4,458 nt of DNA. It comes from a virus. Lineage: Duplodnaviria; Heunggongvirae; Uroviricota; Caudoviricetes. The DNA lies in IMG/VR virus record IMGVR_UViG_2690315994_000021; one strand, 5' to 3'. The position numbers and the translations under genes are program-made. The notes beneath the pieces were generated by a model. That model searched no databases. It was not told where the DNA came from and saw nothing but the letters and a program-made list of their open reading frames with translations. This document shows positions 618 through 4,458 of the stretch, in pieces; the stretch's first letter is position 1, and each line of letters opens with the position of its first letter.

Positions 618-671
618 CAATAGCATGACAATAGCAATGGCTATTGGTGTGGTCAATAGCAATTGGTATTG
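618..671 (-). promoter_or_regulatory. Left operator-like cluster with embedded leftward sigma70-like promoter (pL/oL analogue)
   Basis: Heptamer CAATAGC at 618-624, 629-635 and 654-660; inverse GCTATTG at 640-646; GGTATTG at 665-671. These form an 18-bp palindrome CAATAGCAATGGCTATTG (629-646) and an imperfect copy (654-671). On the minus strand, TTGACC (plus 651-656) - 17 bp - TATTGT (plus 628-633) gives a promoter firing leftward from about 620. The same heptamer recurs in the cI-cro intergenic region. Confidence 0.45.
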
Positions 672-907
672 ATAATGTTTGATATACTTGTTCTGATTGA
701 TAATTAAATGAATTTTTATAAAAAAGAGTATGAAGACTTATTGGTGTGGCTGAAATTTGTACAGCTTTAATGTGCCTCGTGACAGAGGGGCATCGGGTTG
801 TGGTGAGCTCGGTAGGTTGGCAGCAAATTTAATCGAATATTGGTAGTCTGAGTTCTTATGTGTATTTTTTTTAGTCAGTTGCTAAATGATACATAAATGA
901 CTTATTA

Positions 908-938: not shown

Positions 939-1877
939 TTAATTTATCTTTTCAACATTTCCATGAATCAACAAGTCGTAGGCAAGAAATAGTTTCCTAT
1001 ACTGGGTTTTTAAATTGTCAACGTCGCATGTCTTGAATTGAACAAACGCTTCTTTTTTAACATAATCTTCAATCTCCTCTTTGGGGATATTTTTTATGTT
1101 CTTAATGACTATAGACAATTCTTTGTACTTTTTGAACGTTGCATCCTTTATATCTTTGATGTTGGTGTAAATTTTATTTGCATTGATTTTATCTAAGGTG
1201 ATTTTATTGAGCAAGTCGTCTAGTTTTCCGTGGCGTTCAATGCGTTGATTTAGTTTTAACACATATTTAGCTGGCAAACTTAACTCTTTCAAATTACATG
1301 AGGTTATAGTTTTTGAAAATGGAAGTTGTAATGAGTTTACTGAGCCTAATATGAAATCTATGGCTAATTTATTAGATATTTCATTTTTATTAAATAAGTA
1401 ATCTTCAAGATAATTTATTTCTTTAACTTGTGTGAATACATACTTTTTATCGCCTAGAGCAACAACTAAATTTTTTCCTTGTTTAACACTTTCTTCAAGT
1501 CTGTCTAAGTCAGAAGGTGAAACCAATAGAGTATCTAAGTGCCCTTTTTCACCCTCATTAATGATAAGTGTTTTGATGGCTCTTTGATACCTTAAAACAT
1601 CATAAGGTGAGAGCCCTTCATCAACAGCACTGATCTCATCATAGATCTGTTTATAGTTATCTGTTTTAACAGATGTATATGTAATTTGTAGCTGTTGATC
1701 GGTAATCTGTTTTGGTACTACTTCCTGTTCATTCTCTTTATATTCAATCAAAATTATTCTTTCAGCTGATTTTCGACCATCTTCTCTAGGTAGTTGTGAG
1801 GAAAAATCAGAAAGAAGTTTCTTTACATTCCTGTCAGTTAAAGAATATCCAAGAAAAACTATTGGATTTTTAATCAT
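939..1877 (-). CDS. SIR2-family protein, 3' portion: longest start-codon-initiated segment of a longer disrupted gene (frame stays open upstream to 2132)
   Basis: The 312-aa track ORF starts MIKNPIVFLGYSLTDR, which looks like an internal SIR2-like strand and not an N-terminus. Translating the same frame upstream of the ATG gives, with no stop until 2135-2133, ...NINKKAKIIITTNYDAFIKNLL...WSELYKIHGDIKDPH...: a TTNYD motif (2102-2088) and an HG motif (H at 1979-1977). This matches the sirtuin TQNID and catalytic HG motifs. There is no ATG, GTG or TTG in frame between 2132 and 1877, so the track boundary is an artefact of start-codon searching. Confidence 0.75.
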   Translation of the reverse strand: MIKNPIVFLGYSLTDRNVKKLLSDFSSQLPREDGRKSAERIILIEYKENEQEVVPKQITDQQLQITYTSVKTDNYKQIYDEISAVDEGLSPYDVLRYQRAIKTLIINEGEKGHLDTLLVSPSDLDRLEESVKQGKNLVVALGDKKYVFTQVKEINYLEDYLFNKNEISNKLAIDFILGSVNSLQLPFSKTITSCNLKELSLPAKYVLKLNQRIERHGKLDDLLNKITLDKINANKIYTNIKDIKDATFKKYKELSIVIKNIKNIPKEEIEDYVKKEAFVQFKTCDVDNLKTQYRKLFLAYDLLIHGNVEKIN

Positions 1878-2525
1878 GTTAGATAGTATCTTGGCACTAA
1901 TGAGTATAGATTTGTTGTCATATTTTTCGTAATCATCTTTATTTATGATTATTGAGTGTGGATCCTTTATATCACCATGGATTTTGTATAACTCACTCCA
2001 TCCAATAGTATCTTCGAAAAAACCATTATTTCCAATATAGAGTTTTGGAGTTACATTTTGCTCTTGAAGTAAATTTTTTATGAAAGCATCATAATTTGTA
2101 GTGATGATTATCTTGGCCTTTTTATTAATGTTTTAAATGATGCTAATTCATCAAGATTTACATCCTTTCTGATTGTGTTATTAGAAAATCTTTGGCATAT
2201 AGCGTATTTAAATGGTGAAATATCTTCACTAAAAACCCTCTTGGCATCTAGTCCATTTAATTTTAATTTGCCAGTCCTAAACAATAGATTGTAATCATTT
2301 TCAATTTTACTTGCTGCCTCTGTATAAATCTTATGATCGATATCATTATCACTGTTATTTTTATGTGATTCTTTTATTGTTAAAAGATAACTATAGAAAT
2401 CATTTGTGGGATTTGTTATTTTCCAATACTCGTTTAATAGCTCTTCCCACGTTGGGTAGTTCTCTAAATATCTTTTTGAAATGCCTGAGCCAATAAAGAC
2501 TATTGGGTAATTTTTGAATTCAAAA

Positions 2526-2535
2526 TTTTTTTTTT
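2526..2535 (-). repeat. A10 (plus-strand T10) homopolymer spanning codons 3-5 of the SIR2-like gene; frameshift or slippage site
   Basis: Ten consecutive T at plus 2526-2535, read directly. On the coding strand it gives ATG TCA AAA AAA AAA TTT TGA. A 9-A version reads straight into the SIR2 N-terminal domain. Confidence 0.9.
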
Positions 2536-2582
2536 GACATATCCATATACCTTAAGCTCTGCTTGAAACATCCATTCTATAA

Positions 2583-2652: not shown

Positions 2653-3345
2653 CTACCCATGTTTTCTATATGTCTGTGGCATGCTCCCAATAACTTTCCC
2701 AAATATAAATACCCGATTCATTTCGTCTTTTTCGATCGGGTCCCATGGTGAGTAGCTCTTGTTATCAGAGATAACCAGCAGCTTATCCTTCATCATTTGC
2801 AGGCGCTTTACATGGGCTGTGTCGTCGTACAGAAACGCATAGATACCATCACCGTCGAAAGATTTAACAGTGATATCAACGAACAGAAGATCACCTGGTT
2901 CGATCGTTCCTGACATGCTGTCACCGCGTACGTTAATGATGCGGATATTTTCTGCCTTCCTGCCATCGAACATGTGACGAGCATCGTCAAACGAGTACTC
3001 AACCGAGCGTAGGACTTCTACAAACTCACGGTTGATGACACCCGGCCCAGCACTGACTTCTATATCAAGAACGTCAATCTTGAAGTATTTGGAATGGTTG
3101 ACAGCAGGCTTCCCTGATTGTTGACCGTCATTTCTCATCGGGCCTATGCCTGATGAGAGCCACTCTGTTCGAACACCCAATGCATTAGCTATTTCAACAA
3201 TTTTTGTTGAGCCGCGTGCGTTGCCGCTTGTCAGTCTCCAGATTGTGGGTTGAGCTACGCCAGACGCCTTTGCAAGAGCGCCTTGAGACATTCCAGATTG
3301 TTCCATCGCTAGGTTTAAGCGATCAGCAAGAGTTTCTTTTTTCAT
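2653..3345 (-). CDS. CI-like prophage repressor: N-terminal XRE-type HTH plus C-terminal LexA/S24 autopeptidase domain
   Basis: The track ORF 2653..3381 starts at a TTG; the likely true start is ATG 3345 (MKKETLADRLNLAMEQSGMSQGALAKASGVAQPTIWRL...), giving 230 aa. The HTH is in the N-terminus. The C-terminal part has VRGDSMSGTIEPGDLLFVD (Ser nucleophile) and HVKRL (Lys), matching the LexA/UmuD/lambda CI Ser-Lys dyad pattern, with a candidate Ala-Gly cleavage site in EVSAGPG. It is divergent from a Cro-like gene. Confidence 0.85.
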   Translation of the reverse strand: MKKETLADRLNLAMEQSGMSQGALAKASGVAQPTIWRLTSGNARGSTKIVEIANALGVRTEWLSSGIGPMRNDGQQSGKPAVNHSKYFKIDVLDIEVSAGPGVINREFVEVLRSVEYSFDDARHMFDGRKAENIRIINVRGDSMSGTIEPGDLLFVDITVKSFDGDGIYAFLYDDTAHVKRLQMMKDKLLVISDNKSYSPWDPIEKDEMNRVFIFGKVIGSMPQTYRKHG

Positions 3346-3354
3346 AAGTTTTAA

Positions 3355-3447
3355 TTTATACGCTTGCGTATTGATGGTCAAAACACGTTTTGCTATTGAT
3401 TGGATTAATACGCATTGCTATTATCCATTCATTGTAATACCAATAGG
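3355..3447. promoter_or_regulatory. Right operator/promoter region: back-to-back divergent promoters for cI (leftward) and cro (rightward) with operator-like heptamers
   Basis: Rightward: TTGATT (3396-3401) - 17 bp - TATTAT (3419-3424), then AGGA (3445-3448) 7 nt before the cro ATG at 3456. Leftward (minus): TTGACC (plus 3376-3381) - 15 bp - TATAAA (plus 3355-3360), ending about 7-10 nt before the cI ATG at 3345, implying a leaderless or near-leaderless cI mRNA as for lambda pRM. Operator-like heptamers: GCTATTG 3392-3398, GCTATTA 3417-3423, CAATAGG 3441-3447. Confidence 0.45.
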
Positions 3448-3455
3448 AATTGATA

Positions 3456-3683
3456 ATGACAAATCAAACCATTCAACTCGCAATCAGTATTACAGGTAGT
3501 CAAAAACGACTGGCAGATCTATGCGGTGTAGCCCAGCCCACTGTTTGGCGTTGGCTACACGGTGGCGGAATTGATGCCCGCTATGTAATGAAAATTGTCT
3601 CAGCCACTGGTGGAAAGATTAAACCAGCAGATATTCGTCCCGACCTTGCACCATTGTTTAACGCGAGTAATTCTGCCGCCTAA
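3456..3683 (+). CDS. Cro-like HTH regulator (YdaS-like family)
   Basis: The track ORF starts at TTG 3450, but ATG 3456 has AGGA at the right spacing. Protein MTNQTIQLAISITGSQKRLADLCGVAQPTVWRWLHGGG...TGGKIKPADIRPDL matches, from memory, the YdaS/Cro-like pattern (ITGSQ, HTH, TGG, DLRPD). It is divergent from the repressor. Stop is TAA at 3681-3683. Confidence 0.8.
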   Translation: MTNQTIQLAISITGSQKRLADLCGVAQPTVWRWLHGGGIDARYVMKIVSATGGKIKPADIRPDLAPLFNASNSAA

Positions 3684-4253: not shown

Positions 4254-4420
4254 CAGGTTCAGAAATGGCGAAAGCCGGTCTGCGGGAACAGAGCCGACTT
4301 TCAGGTGCAAATCGTAACGCACTCATTGCGGAAGGAATTATGGCAAACACTGTGAACCGCCCCGGTTTTCCTGGAGAGTGTTTTATCTGTGAACTCAGGC
4401 TGCCAGATCATCGTTTCTGA
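4250..4420 (+). CDS. Small hypothetical ORF (56 aa), translationally coupled to the upstream gene
   Basis: Its ATG (4250-4252) overlaps the upstream TGA stop (4251-4253) in an ATGA arrangement. Protein MTGSEMAKAGLREQSRLSGANRNALIAEGIMANTVNRPGFPGECFICELRLPDHRF contains a CxxC. It is below the ORF-track size cutoff and I recognise no homology. Confidence 0.3.
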   Translation: MTGSEMAKAGLREQSRLSGANRNALIAEGIMANTVNRPGFPGECFICELRLPDHRF

Positions 4421-4458
4421 TGGAAGCATAATAAGCTTTTTCTGCTTCTGCCGGAGGG

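What the first reader, a model, noticed from the sequence alone, without database searches (positions are those of the whole stretch)
2520..2540. A10 tract at codons 3-5 puts the start codon out of frame with the SIR2 domain
Sequence as given: ATG TCA then A x10, then TTT TGA, a stop after 6 codons. With 9 A the same ATG reads MSKKNFEFKNYPIVFIGSGIS... into the domain. The domain frame has no ATG, GTG or TTG of its own upstream. Runs of 9 or more A/T are known substrates for slipped-strand mispairing (heritable ON/OFF switching) and for RNA polymerase transcriptional slippage, which yields a mixed mRNA population. So this could be a stochastic switch on a costly NADase, or a homopolymer sequencing error.
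Basis: partly seen in the sequence, partly recalled or inferred. Interest (0 to 1): 0.6.

Follow-up and report, generated by a model that had tools for sequence, protein, structure and literature searches.

The report
Slippage-broken prophage SIR2 defence pseudogene
A run of ten A's does put the start codon of a prophage SIR2 (NAD-destroying, anti-phage-type) gene out of frame, but this copy also has a second frameshift and a damaging substitution, so it is a dead gene and not a working switch, although the A-run is a recurrent slippage hotspot in E. coli.

Summary
On the minus strand the sequence reads ATG(2540-2538) TCA, A10 (2535-2526), TTT TGA(2522-2520). The SIR2 frame has no ATG/GTG/TTG upstream.

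An A6 run is shortened to A5 (2123-2119), which stops the SIR2 frame at codon 144, before the catalytic Asn149 and His188. There is also a private E155K change at a residue conserved in at least 90% of the family. Restoring A9 would therefore not rescue this copy.

The window is the whole contig CYBJ01000081.1 of an E. coli O55:H7-type draft assembly. Two independent assemblies of public read sets carry the identical lesions, so assembly error is unlikely.

Tract lengths in 166 complete E. coli genomes with the locus:
- A9: 156
- A10: 3
- A8: 3
- in-frame A8T5: at least 2
- A11: 0

The off-length alleles sit on at least six SNP backgrounds, and all except this lineage keep the rest of the ORF intact. 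Homologues in other genera lack the tract.

Verdict: this is a decaying pseudogene of an untested candidate defence gene (PADLOC PDC-S25) in the rexAB-like slot of a lambdoid prophage. The first hit was probably at a slippage hotspot. A programmed switch is not shown.

The parts
939..2540 (-). Remains of a 533-codon SIR2-family gene (PADLOC candidate PDC-S25), broken into three frames by two 1-nt indels. The stop codon of the intact gene is at 941-939.
   Evidence: The intact orthologue L002:1621-3222 (WP_000038832) matches PDC-S25 at E 1.3e-234 and Pfam SIR2_2 at 1.2e-23. The three-frame translation of the window is and the alignment to five complete genomes.
2538..2540 (-). Native start codon ATG. 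A second in-frame ATG lies at 2546-2544.
   Evidence: Homologues from many genera start M-x-x-x-[I/N]-F at this position. An AAGG Shine-Dalgarno-like motif lies 9 nt upstream.
2550..2553 (-). AAGG Shine-Dalgarno-like motif for the native start. It overlaps the TAA (2554-2552) that closes the A10 phase upstream.
   Evidence: Direct reading. Its function is inferred.
2526..2535 (-). A10 homopolymer (A9 in 94% of relatives): frameshift number 1 (+1).
   Evidence: Census of 166 complete genomes: A9 156, A10 3, A8 3, A8T5 at least 2, A11 0. In 18 IMG/VR and metagenome loci: A9 14, A8 2, A10 1, A8T5 1.
2520..2522 (-). Premature TGA in the ATG frame, after MSKKKF.
2569..2571 (-). Upstream ATG in the A8 phase. 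In A8 alleles it opens a 543-codon ORF (MFQAELKVYGYVKKNFEF...). It is not in phase with the domain in this window.
   Evidence: PGAP annotates 543-aa CDSs in three A8 genomes. The frame was checked.
2119..2123 (-). A5 run where all relatives have A6: frameshift number 2 (-1), private to this lineage.
   Evidence: It is absent from 166 of 166 complete genomes and from 17 of 17 other loci that reach it. It is present in L006 and L008.
2108..2110 (-). TAA that ends the SIR2 frame at codon 144 (...FKTLIKRPR*) as a result of frameshift 2.
2076..2078 (-). Codon 155, AAA (Lys) instead of GAA (Glu): a private missense change at a residue conserved in at least 90% of the family.
   Evidence: position 2078. 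E155 is listed as nearly invariant in alignment A1. The context NYDAFIENLL is shown.
939..1877 (-). Residual 312-codon ORF (residues 222-533). This is the product gene callers report for this allele (CTU12178.1). It lacks the GSG loop, N149 and H188.
2653..3381 (-). cI-like repressor gene (XRE HTH plus Peptidase_S24) immediately upstream on the same strand. The annotated CDS is 693 nt.
   Evidence: Annotation WP_000712399. Pfam HTH_3 and Peptidase_S24 are recorded on the called gene.

Best explanation
The window holds a true, heritable pseudogene of a prophage-borne SIR2-family gene.

What the intact gene is (shown): a 533-aa protein with an N-terminal DSR2/ThsA-type SIR2 domain. This domain has the GSG NAD loop, Asn149 and His188. 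The C-terminal half is helical and of unknown function. It belongs to PADLOC family PDC-S25, an untested candidate anti-phage system.

Where it sits (shown): directly downstream of the cI-like repressor and between operator-like repeats. This is the slot that rexAB occupies in phage lambda. The prophage is lambdoid and integrated next to tRNA-Arg at the DLP12 (intD) site.

How it normally works (inferred): it is transcribed with the repressor in lysogens and depletes NAD+ when a superinfecting phage triggers it.

What happened in this O55:H7-type lineage:
- The A9 run at codons 2-5 gained one A by replication slippage. This separated both ATGs from the SIR2 frame (shown).
- The lineage then also acquired a -1 deletion in an A6 run at codons 140-141 and an E155K substitution (shown).
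- That the A10 change came first is inferred, because the sister strain DEC5E and 20 other contigs carry A10 alone.

Consequence: no single tract change, transcriptional slip or ribosomal slip can restore a catalytic protein. The copy is non-functional and decaying.

At the population level the A9 run is a mutational hotspot that repeatedly yields A8 and A10 alleles. The in-frame A9 is the form that selection maintains.
For: Anatomy:
- The three-frame translation and the alignment to five complete genomes show A10 plus A5 plus the 2078 change.
- N149 and H188 lie downstream of the second shift.
- E155 is nearly invariant in the family.

Real and heritable:
- The window equals contig CYBJ01000081.1 of GCA_001284825.1.
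- Logan assemblies of ERR137783 and ERR10017185 are identical at all four private sites.
- A10 alone occurs in O55:H7 DEC5E.
- The exact 448-aa product expected from an A10-only O55-type allele is on 20 contigs. The 312-aa product of the double-frameshift allele is on 3.

A second lesion is unique to this lineage: 0 of 166 complete genomes and 0 of 17 other loci.

Hotspot:
- 166 complete genomes give A9 156, A10 3, A8 3 and A8T5 at least 2.
- The off-length alleles lie on at least six SNP haplotypes, each with a 529-codon ORF still open downstream.
- Products of off-length alleles recur in large collections: 162, 12 and 2 contigs for A8, and 36 and 20 for A10.

The gene was functional and constrained: 10 synonymous against 5 non-synonymous differences among haplotypes.

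Identity:
- PDC-S25 at 1.3e-234 and SIR2_2 at 1.2e-23.
- A family profile hits DSR2, ThsA and KomC structures at 1e-15 to 1e-11.
- The AlphaFold model (pLDDT 81) matches DSR2 and ThsA SIR2 domains by Foldseek.

Context:
- The gene order repressor, SIR2, kil, gam, bet is seen.
- CAATAGCAAT-type repeats lie at 629-663 and, inverted, at 3390-3422.
- The same prophage has other pseudogenes: tape measure, nohD and a methylase.
Against: - I could not see reads, so heterogeneity of tract length within the isolate is untested.
- ERR137783 may be the same read set as the NCBI assembly. It is identical even at the odd contig end. Truly independent support then rests on ERR10017185 and on DEC5E.
- The order of the three lesions is inferred by parsimony.
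- Neither defence function nor NADase activity has been tested for PDC-S25. PDC systems are described as untested candidates in bioRxiv 10.1101/2024.01.29.577857.
- Co-transcription with the repressor is inferred only from position. The promoter scan found no more sites than shuffles do.
- With only three private changes in 4.3 kb, their concentration in the gene is not statistically significant.
Confidence: 0.8

Rival explanations
1. Contingency locus. The A9 tract at codons 2-5 is a selected, reversible phase-variation switch that turns a costly prophage NADase on and off by slipped-strand mispairing. It could have three states: A9 uses the native start, A8 uses the upstream ATG at 2571, and A10 is off. 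The window would simply be caught in the OFF state.
For: - The tract sits at the extreme 5' end of the ORF.
- Plus-one and minus-one alleles recur on at least six haplotypes with the rest of the ORF intact.
- They are seen in many assemblies.
- Two of the three phases have an ATG-initiated ORF into the domain.
- Runs of 9 A/T are slippage-prone and generally avoided in coding regions (PMC1088944).
Against: - This copy has a second frameshift and E155K, so it cannot switch back on.
- The tract is absent from every homologue outside the 99%-identical E. coli cluster, whose N-termini read MSEKIF, MPNKIF, MPEPIF and so on.
- A run of this length is expected by chance in about 28% of equally A-rich genes.
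- 94% of complete genomes carry in-frame A9.
- Off-length alleles persist as identical products on tens to more than a hundred contigs. This looks like stable inheritance, not rapid switching.
- From my own knowledge, not tested here: indel rates at A9 runs in mismatch-repair-proficient E. coli are far below classical phase-variation rates.
Confidence: 0.12
2. Sequencing or assembly artefact. The true sequence is A9 (and A6), and the indels are homopolymer errors of the draft assembly.
For: - Both indels lie in A-runs.
- The source is a short contig of a draft assembly.
- Contigs often break inside this 30%-GC gene: there are 273 'partial' proteins in one cluster.
Against: - The identical A10 and A5, and both private SNPs, appear in two separately built Logan assemblies from two run accessions.
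- A10 is shared with the complete genome of DEC5E.
- The private changes include two substitutions, which homopolymer errors do not explain.
- No other homopolymer discrepancy occurs across the 4.1 kb shared with relatives.
Confidence: 0.04
3. Pseudo-pseudogene. Full-length protein is still made from this allele through RNA polymerase slippage on the A10 run (A10 to A9 in mRNA) or a +1 ribosomal slip (Lys-tRNA on the A-run, or Phe-tRNA on UUU_UGA). A second -1 slip at A_AAA_AGG would also be needed.
For: - Transcriptional slippage on runs of 9 or more A can restore disrupted ORFs (PMC1088944).
- The A10 frame ends in AAA TTT TGA, a 'shifty stop' context.
- The second site places the rare AGG codon after AAA.
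Against: - Two independent low-probability recoding events would have to coincide on one transcript or ribosome.
- A5 is too short for efficient transcriptional slippage.
- The product would still carry E155K.
- Nothing about the out-of-frame arrangement is conserved: it is found in 0 of 166 genomes.
- For A10-only alleles such as DEC5E, a single slip is plausible, but that is not this window.
Confidence: 0.03

Closest known systems
Homopolymer-tract frameshift pseudogenes and 'pseudo pseudogenes' (Baranov et al. 2005, Genome Biol 6:R25, PMC1088944)
   Same: The ORF is disrupted by a one-base change in a 9-10 nt A-run, and orthologues in other strains of the same species are intact. The tract is prone to both replication and transcription slippage.
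   Different: This allele has a second frameshift in a short A5/A6 run plus a missense change, so slippage at the long run cannot restore the ORF. A10-only alleles in DEC5E, strain 155 and PG20180057 fit the 'pseudo pseudogene' category better.
Translational phase-variation (contingency) loci, for example Haemophilus influenzae lic1 with alternative in-phase ATGs, and Campylobacter or Neisseria poly-G/C tracts (recalled from memory, not tested here)
   Same: A repeat lies just after the start codon. Length varies among close relatives. Different phases connect to different start codons (A9 to ATG 2540, A8 to ATG 2571, A10 to none).
   Different: The tract is not conserved among homologues. One length dominates at 94%. 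No rate data exist. E. coli with intact mismatch repair is not known to use this mechanism. The copy in the window is irreversibly broken.
Defence-associated SIR2 NADases: DSR2, Thoeris ThsA, KomC
   Same: The SIR2 fold and motifs match: GSG loop, TTNYD with N149, KIHGD with H188. The family profile and Foldseek both hit these structures.
   Different: It is a single 533-aa protein. It lacks the SLOG domain of ThsA, has no TIR partner gene nearby, and lacks the ~700-aa HEAT-like sensor of DSR2. Foldseek aligned well only the N-terminal SIR2 part, so the ~240-aa C-terminal helical domain remains unassigned. Activity has not been tested.
PADLOC PDC-S25 (phage defence candidate, single gene)
   Same: The intact orthologue matches the full-length HMM over residues 3-526 of 533 at E 1.3e-234.
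   Different: PDC systems are predictions by 'guilt-by-embedding' and are untested. The window's copy is not an intact member.
Phage lambda rexAB (an immunity-region passenger expressed in the lysogen with cI)
   Same: It has the same slot: downstream of the repressor on the same strand, between OR-like and OL-like operator repeats, and followed by kil-gam-bet.
   Different: The protein is unrelated, and it is one gene instead of two. Co-transcription with the repressor is inferred, not shown.

Membership tests
PADLOC PDC-S25 / SIR2_2 (PF13289) family | Full-length match to the family HMM | tested here: met
   The intact orthologue L002:1621-3222 scores PDC-S25 E 1.3e-234 over residues 3-526, and PF13289 scores 84 bits against a cut-off of 24.5. 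The window's DNA is 99.8% identical to it.
PADLOC PDC-S25 / SIR2_2 (PF13289) family | One uninterrupted ORF encoding the protein | tested here: not met
   Two frameshifts split the window's gene into MSKKKF*, a 139-codon stretch without a start, and a 312-codon ORF.
Defence SIR2 NADase (DSR2/ThsA-like) | SIR2 Rossmann fold with the NAD-binding Gly loop and catalytic Asn and His | tested here: met
   G17, G19 and N149 are invariant and H188 is nearly invariant across 59 homologues. The family profile hits DSR2 and ThsA and the model matches them by Foldseek. In the window these residues are encoded but cannot be reached from any start codon.
Defence SIR2 NADase (DSR2/ThsA-like) | Phage-triggered NAD+ depletion and protection from phage | not testable with these tools
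The literature search found PDC-S25 only as a prediction.
Thoeris | ThsA with a SLOG domain plus an adjacent TIR-domain ThsB | tested here: not met
   Only the SIR2 part matches the ThsA models (residues 145-257). The neighbours are the repressor and kil, with no TIR gene.
Contingency (phase-variable) locus | Hypermutable simple repeat inside the 5' coding region whose length sets the reading frame | tested here: met
   The A-run spans codons 2-5, and A8, A9 and A10 give three phases.
Contingency (phase-variable) locus | Repeat-length polymorphism among close relatives arising independently | tested here: met
   156 A9, 3 A10, 3 A8 and at least 2 A8T5 in complete genomes, with off-length alleles on at least six haplotypes. 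The same mix appears in 18 further loci.
Contingency (phase-variable) locus | OFF alleles otherwise intact, so that switching is reversible | tested here: not met
   This is met in the six other off-length genomes but not in the window, L006 or L008, which carry the second frameshift and E155K.
Contingency (phase-variable) locus | Tract maintained by selection across orthologues or homologues | tested here: not met
   None of 118 other listed homologues encodes Lys-Lys at positions 3-4, so none can carry an A-run of 9 or more there. The chance expectation is 0.27-0.29.
Contingency (phase-variable) locus | High-frequency reversible switching within a clonal population | not testable with these tools
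   This needs read pile-ups, fluctuation assays or reporter fusions.
Programmed transcriptional slippage gene (dnaX of Thermus, IS elements, Shigella mxiE type) | Out-of-frame ORF organisation and tract length conserved among homologues | tested here: not met
   The in-frame A9 is the norm at 94%, and the out-of-frame forms are minority alleles. The criterion comes from PMC1088944.

The most novel reading that the evidence does not exclude
In E. coli strains where the rest of the gene is intact, the A-run could be a real three-state expression switch for a prophage SIR2 abortive-infection NADase. A9 would use the native start. A8 would use the upstream ATG at 2571 and add 10 N-terminal residues. 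A10 would be off, or leaky through RNA-polymerase slippage or a UUU_UGA +1 shift. This would generate lysogen subpopulations that differ in defence and in its cost. The window would then be a lineage in which the OFF state lasted long enough for the gene to decay.
Probability: 0.12. Interest if true: 0.6.

Novelty: new member of a known kind. Interest (0 to 1): 0.3.

Why it matters
For this window the practical message concerns annotation. The SIR2 gene should be called a pseudogene with two frameshifts. It should not be counted as an active defence system, nor as a one-step reversible switch.

More generally, the locus is a clean natural example of how a single homopolymer makes a defence gene in a mobile element unusually easy to lose. 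Off-length alleles were found in about 4% of complete genomes and 3 of 18 other loci. This affects defence-system censuses in O157:H7 and O55:H7, where pipelines mask the lesion with ATA or internal starts. It also bears on predicting the phage susceptibility of these pathogens. If the minority reading were right, it would add slipped-strand phase variation of an NADase defence gene to E. coli biology.

Tried and rejected
- Megablast of the gene against the INPHARED phage collection found no match, so no free-phage comparison was possible.
- NCBIfam gave no family.
- An exact-pattern scan of GTDB species representatives gave 0 loci. The allele cluster appears confined to E. coli-type genomes in these collections.
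- An A11 query found none among the 166 genomes.
I used exact-sequence contig counts instead. These counts are approximate: they depend on gene callers, overlap between sources, and are capped at 1000.
- I looked for a matched control homopolymer in the surrounding 50 kb. The only other run of 8 or more is T8 at window 865-872, which varies only between lineages, so no error-rate baseline could be built.
- The promoter and terminator scan found no more sites than shuffles do. It gave no independent promoter in the 112-nt repressor-SIR2 gap.
- Foldseek against the PDB gave good alignments only to the SIR2 domain, so the C-terminal helical domain stays unassigned.
- Literature searches found no experimental work on PDC-S25 and no report of a phase-variable SIR2 defence gene.
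- I considered that the +1 and -1 indels compensate each other. This is rejected because the ATG frame hits TGA after six codons and has many further stops before the second indel.

Full report
**1. The observation**

The feature lies on the minus strand. Reading 2600 to 2500 in reverse complement gives ...CTTAAGGTATATGGATATGTC-A10-TTTTGAATTC....

- ATG is at 2540-2538 and a second in-frame ATG at 2546-2544.
- An AAGG Shine-Dalgarno-like motif is at 2553-2550.
- The A-run of exactly ten is at 2535-2526.
- TGA is at 2522-2520, so the ATG frame reads MSKKKF then stop.
- The frame carrying the SIR2 sequence (KKNFEFKNYPIVFIGSGIS...) is closed upstream by TAA at 2554-2552. It has no ATG, GTG or TTG between that stop and the tract.

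The description is therefore correct.

The gene is 41.5% A and 29.7% GC. A run of nine or more A's appears in 27-29% of shuffled versions, so the tract is not improbable by itself. It is nonetheless the longest homopolymer in 50 kb of the corresponding complete genome.

**2.

The three-frame translation shows that the gene changes frame twice. The ATG and the C-terminal two-thirds share one frame, and residues ~5-143 are in another.

Alignment with five complete genomes locates the second lesion. An A6 run (ATA AAA AAG GCC, residues I-K-K-A at 139-142) is shortened to A5 at 2123-2119. This leads to ...FKTLIKRPR and TAA at 2110-2108.

The same alignment shows a private G-to-A change on the coding strand at 2078, giving E155K. 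E155 is conserved in at least 90% of a 59-member family alignment.

The catalytic-type residues N149 (TTNYD) and H188 (KIHGD) lie downstream of the second shift. With A9 restored, this allele would therefore encode only a 143-residue fragment.

**3. Is it real?**

An exact-product look-up identified the window as the complete contig CYBJ01000081.1 of NCBI assembly GCA_001284825.1.

It also found two Logan assemblies of public runs, ERR137783 (L008) and ERR10017185 (L006). Both encode the same 312-aa residual ORF. Both are identical to the window at all four private positions: A10, A5, 2078 and 651.

- L008 is identical to the window even at the atypical contig end, so it may be the same isolate.
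- L006 continues into the RM12579-type replication gene where the window diverges, from 4353 onward.

A10 alone is present in the closely related complete genome O55:H7 DEC5E. An assembly artefact is therefore unlikely, although I could not inspect reads.

**4.

The locus is present in 166 of 5,426 complete E. coli genomes, always on the chromosome at 99% identity or more. Short queries that differ only in tract length gave the counts below.

| Tract | Complete genomes |
|---|---|
| A9 | 156 |
| A10 | 3 (strain 155, O55:H7 DEC5E, O2:H6 PG20180057) |
| A8 | 3 (Z1323PEC0014, BroCaecum-55, CFIAFB20190157) |
| A11 | 0 |
| in-frame A8T5 (MSKKIFEF) | at least 2 of the remaining 4 |

- The six off-length alleles sit on at least six different SNP haplotypes. 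All keep the downstream 529 codons open.
- An independent set of 18 loci from IMG/VR and metagenomes gave A9 14, A8 2, A10 1 and A8T5 1. None has the second frameshift or E155K.
- The A5 deletion occurs in 0 of 166 complete genomes.

Exact-sequence contig counts in the 15-billion-protein collection:

| Product | Contigs |
|---|---|
| 543-aa A8 products | 162, 12 and 2 |
| 448-aa A10-type product, O157-type | 36 |
| 448-aa A10-type product, O55-type | 20 |
| O55-type intact forms | 48 and 73 |
| O157-type intact forms | at least 1000 (capped) |
| Window's 312-aa product | 3 |

The tract is therefore a recurrent site of +1 and -1 change in nature. The in-frame A9 predominates.

**5. Phases and annotation**

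- In A8 alleles an upstream ATG (window equivalent 2571-2569) comes into phase. PGAP annotates a 543-aa protein starting MFQAELKVYGYVKKNFEF.
- In A10 alleles no canonical start is available. PGAP either uses an ATA start (strain 155 and PG20180057, 534 aa) or an internal TTG (DEC5E, 448 aa).

These annotations hide the lesion.

**6. What the gene is**

- The intact 533-aa protein matches PADLOC PDC-S25 end to end (E 1.3e-234) and Pfam SIR2_2.
- A family profile hits the SIR2 domains of DSR2, ThsA and KomC in the PDB.
- An AlphaFold model (mean pLDDT 81) gives Foldseek matches to DSR2 and ThsA. TM is about 0.6 against the isolated DSR2 SIR2 domain. Nothing convincing matches the helical C-terminal ~240 residues.
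- PDC systems are untested candidates predicted by embedding in known systems (bioRxiv 10.1101/2024.01.29.577857). The only other mention found is a PADLOC prediction in an O157:H7 strain.
- Homologues at 40-75% identity occur in Enterobacterales, Morganellaceae and Firmicutes.
- Among E. coli haplotypes there are 10 synonymous and 5 non-synonymous differences. This indicates purifying selection on the intact gene.

**7. Context**

The gene lies 112 nt downstream of a cI-like repressor (HTH plus Peptidase_S24) on the same strand. It is followed by a non-coding stretch and then kil, gam and bet. A cro/YdaS-like gene and a YdaT-like gene diverge on the other side.

CAATAGCAAT-type repeats occur at 629-663 and, inverted, at 3390-3422. 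These look like OL- and OR-type operators, so the SIR2 gene occupies the slot of lambda rexAB. I infer, but have not shown, expression with the repressor in lysogens.

The prophage sits beside tRNA-Arg and intD, the DLP12 site. It carries other pseudogenes, consistent with general decay.

**8. Mechanism and rivals**

Best explanation (confidence 0.8): replication slippage lengthened A9 to A10 in an O55:H7 sub-lineage. This state is seen alone in DEC5E and on 20 other contigs. In the window's branch the now unconstrained gene picked up a second frameshift and E155K. The copy is a fixed pseudogene.

The contingency-locus reading (0.12) is supported by the 5' position, the recurrent polymorphism and the alternative start. 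Against it:
- the tract is absent in all non-E. coli homologues;
- A9 dominates;
- off-length alleles persist as stable, identical products;
- for this window, the change is irreversible.

Rescue by transcriptional slippage, the 'pseudo pseudogene' of Baranov et al. (PMC1088944), is plausible for A10-only alleles. Here it would need a second, independent recoding event (0.03). Assembly error is rated 0.04.

**9. Novelty and score**

A homopolymer-slippage pseudogene is a known kind of thing. The specific locus, a candidate SIR2 defence gene in the immunity region of an O157/O55 prophage with a recurrently slipping A9 run, has not to my knowledge been described. I rate it a new member of a known kind, with interest 0.3.

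The most novel reading still open is a true three-state switch in strains with an intact gene (probability about 0.12, interest if true 0.6).

Noticed in passing
window 2523-2535 (compare L014:101-185, L015:101-185, L028): At least three genomes or contigs (O157:H7 strain 7636, Ec-U3 and one IMG/VR contig) carry A8T5 instead of A9T4. This gives in-frame MSKKIFEF (N5I). It is either an A-to-T substitution or a -1 slip in the A-run compensated by a +1 slip in the adjacent T-run. Ile at position 5 is the family consensus.
   Followed up: partly
window 2569-2571 and L011-L013:1803-3434: In A8 alleles an upstream ATG comes into phase and PGAP annotates a 543-aa SIR2 protein with a 10-residue N-terminal extension. 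For A10 alleles PGAP uses an ATA start (534 aa) or an internal TTG (448 aa). Frameshifted alleles are therefore annotated as intact genes.
   Followed up: partly
window 2552-2575: A mini-ORF, ATG GAT GTT TCA AGC AGA GCT TAA (MDVSSRA*), lies in the A10 phase. Its stop overlaps the AAGG Shine-Dalgarno-like motif of the main start. Its significance is unknown.
   Followed up: no
window 2520-2528: In the A10 allele the ATG frame ends AAA TTT TGA. A +1 slip of Phe-tRNA on UUUU at this 'shifty stop' would give MSKKKFEFKNYP..., back in the SIR2 frame. This is speculative.
   Followed up: no
window 4353-4458: The last ~105 nt of the contig do not match the RM12579 prophage or the Logan contig L006, both of which continue into the replication-protein gene. 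L008 shares the window's version. This is either a mosaic junction with another lambdoid prophage or a repeat-boundary contig end.
   Followed up: partly
window 3530-3534: O157-type relatives (strain 155 and 644-PT8) lack 5 bp (AGCCC) inside the cro/YdaS-like gene, which PGAP marks as frameshifted there. The window and the O55 strains have it intact.
   Followed up: no
window 865-872: A T8 run in the non-coding stretch downstream of the SIR2 gene is T7 in the O157 and H10-type haplotypes. This difference follows lineage and is not recurrent.
   Followed up: partly
window 629-663 and 3390-3422: CAATAGCAAT-type repeats flank the repressor-SIR2 module in opposite orientation, together with ATTGATAATG at 668-677 and 3449-3458. 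They look like OL and OR operator sets. The private SNP at 651 lies between two of them.
   Followed up: partly
L011 and L012 (A8 haplotypes), gene codons 287, 384, 441, 468: Four of the five non-synonymous differences among E. coli haplotypes are private to the two divergent A8 strains, against three synonymous differences there. This hints at relaxed constraint in A8 lineages but is not significant.
   Followed up: no
window 939-2540 (protein clusters): Hundreds of 'partial' versions of this protein exist in NCBI draft assemblies (a 273-member cluster of N-terminal fragments). Short-read contigs evidently often break inside this 30%-GC gene.
   Followed up: no
L009 (NC_017656.1 676000-725900): The host prophage at the tRNA-Arg/intD (DLP12) site carries other annotated pseudogenes in RM12579: tape measure (internal stop), nohD (frameshift) and an N6-adenine methyltransferase (frameshift). 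The prophage appears to be degrading.
   Followed up: no
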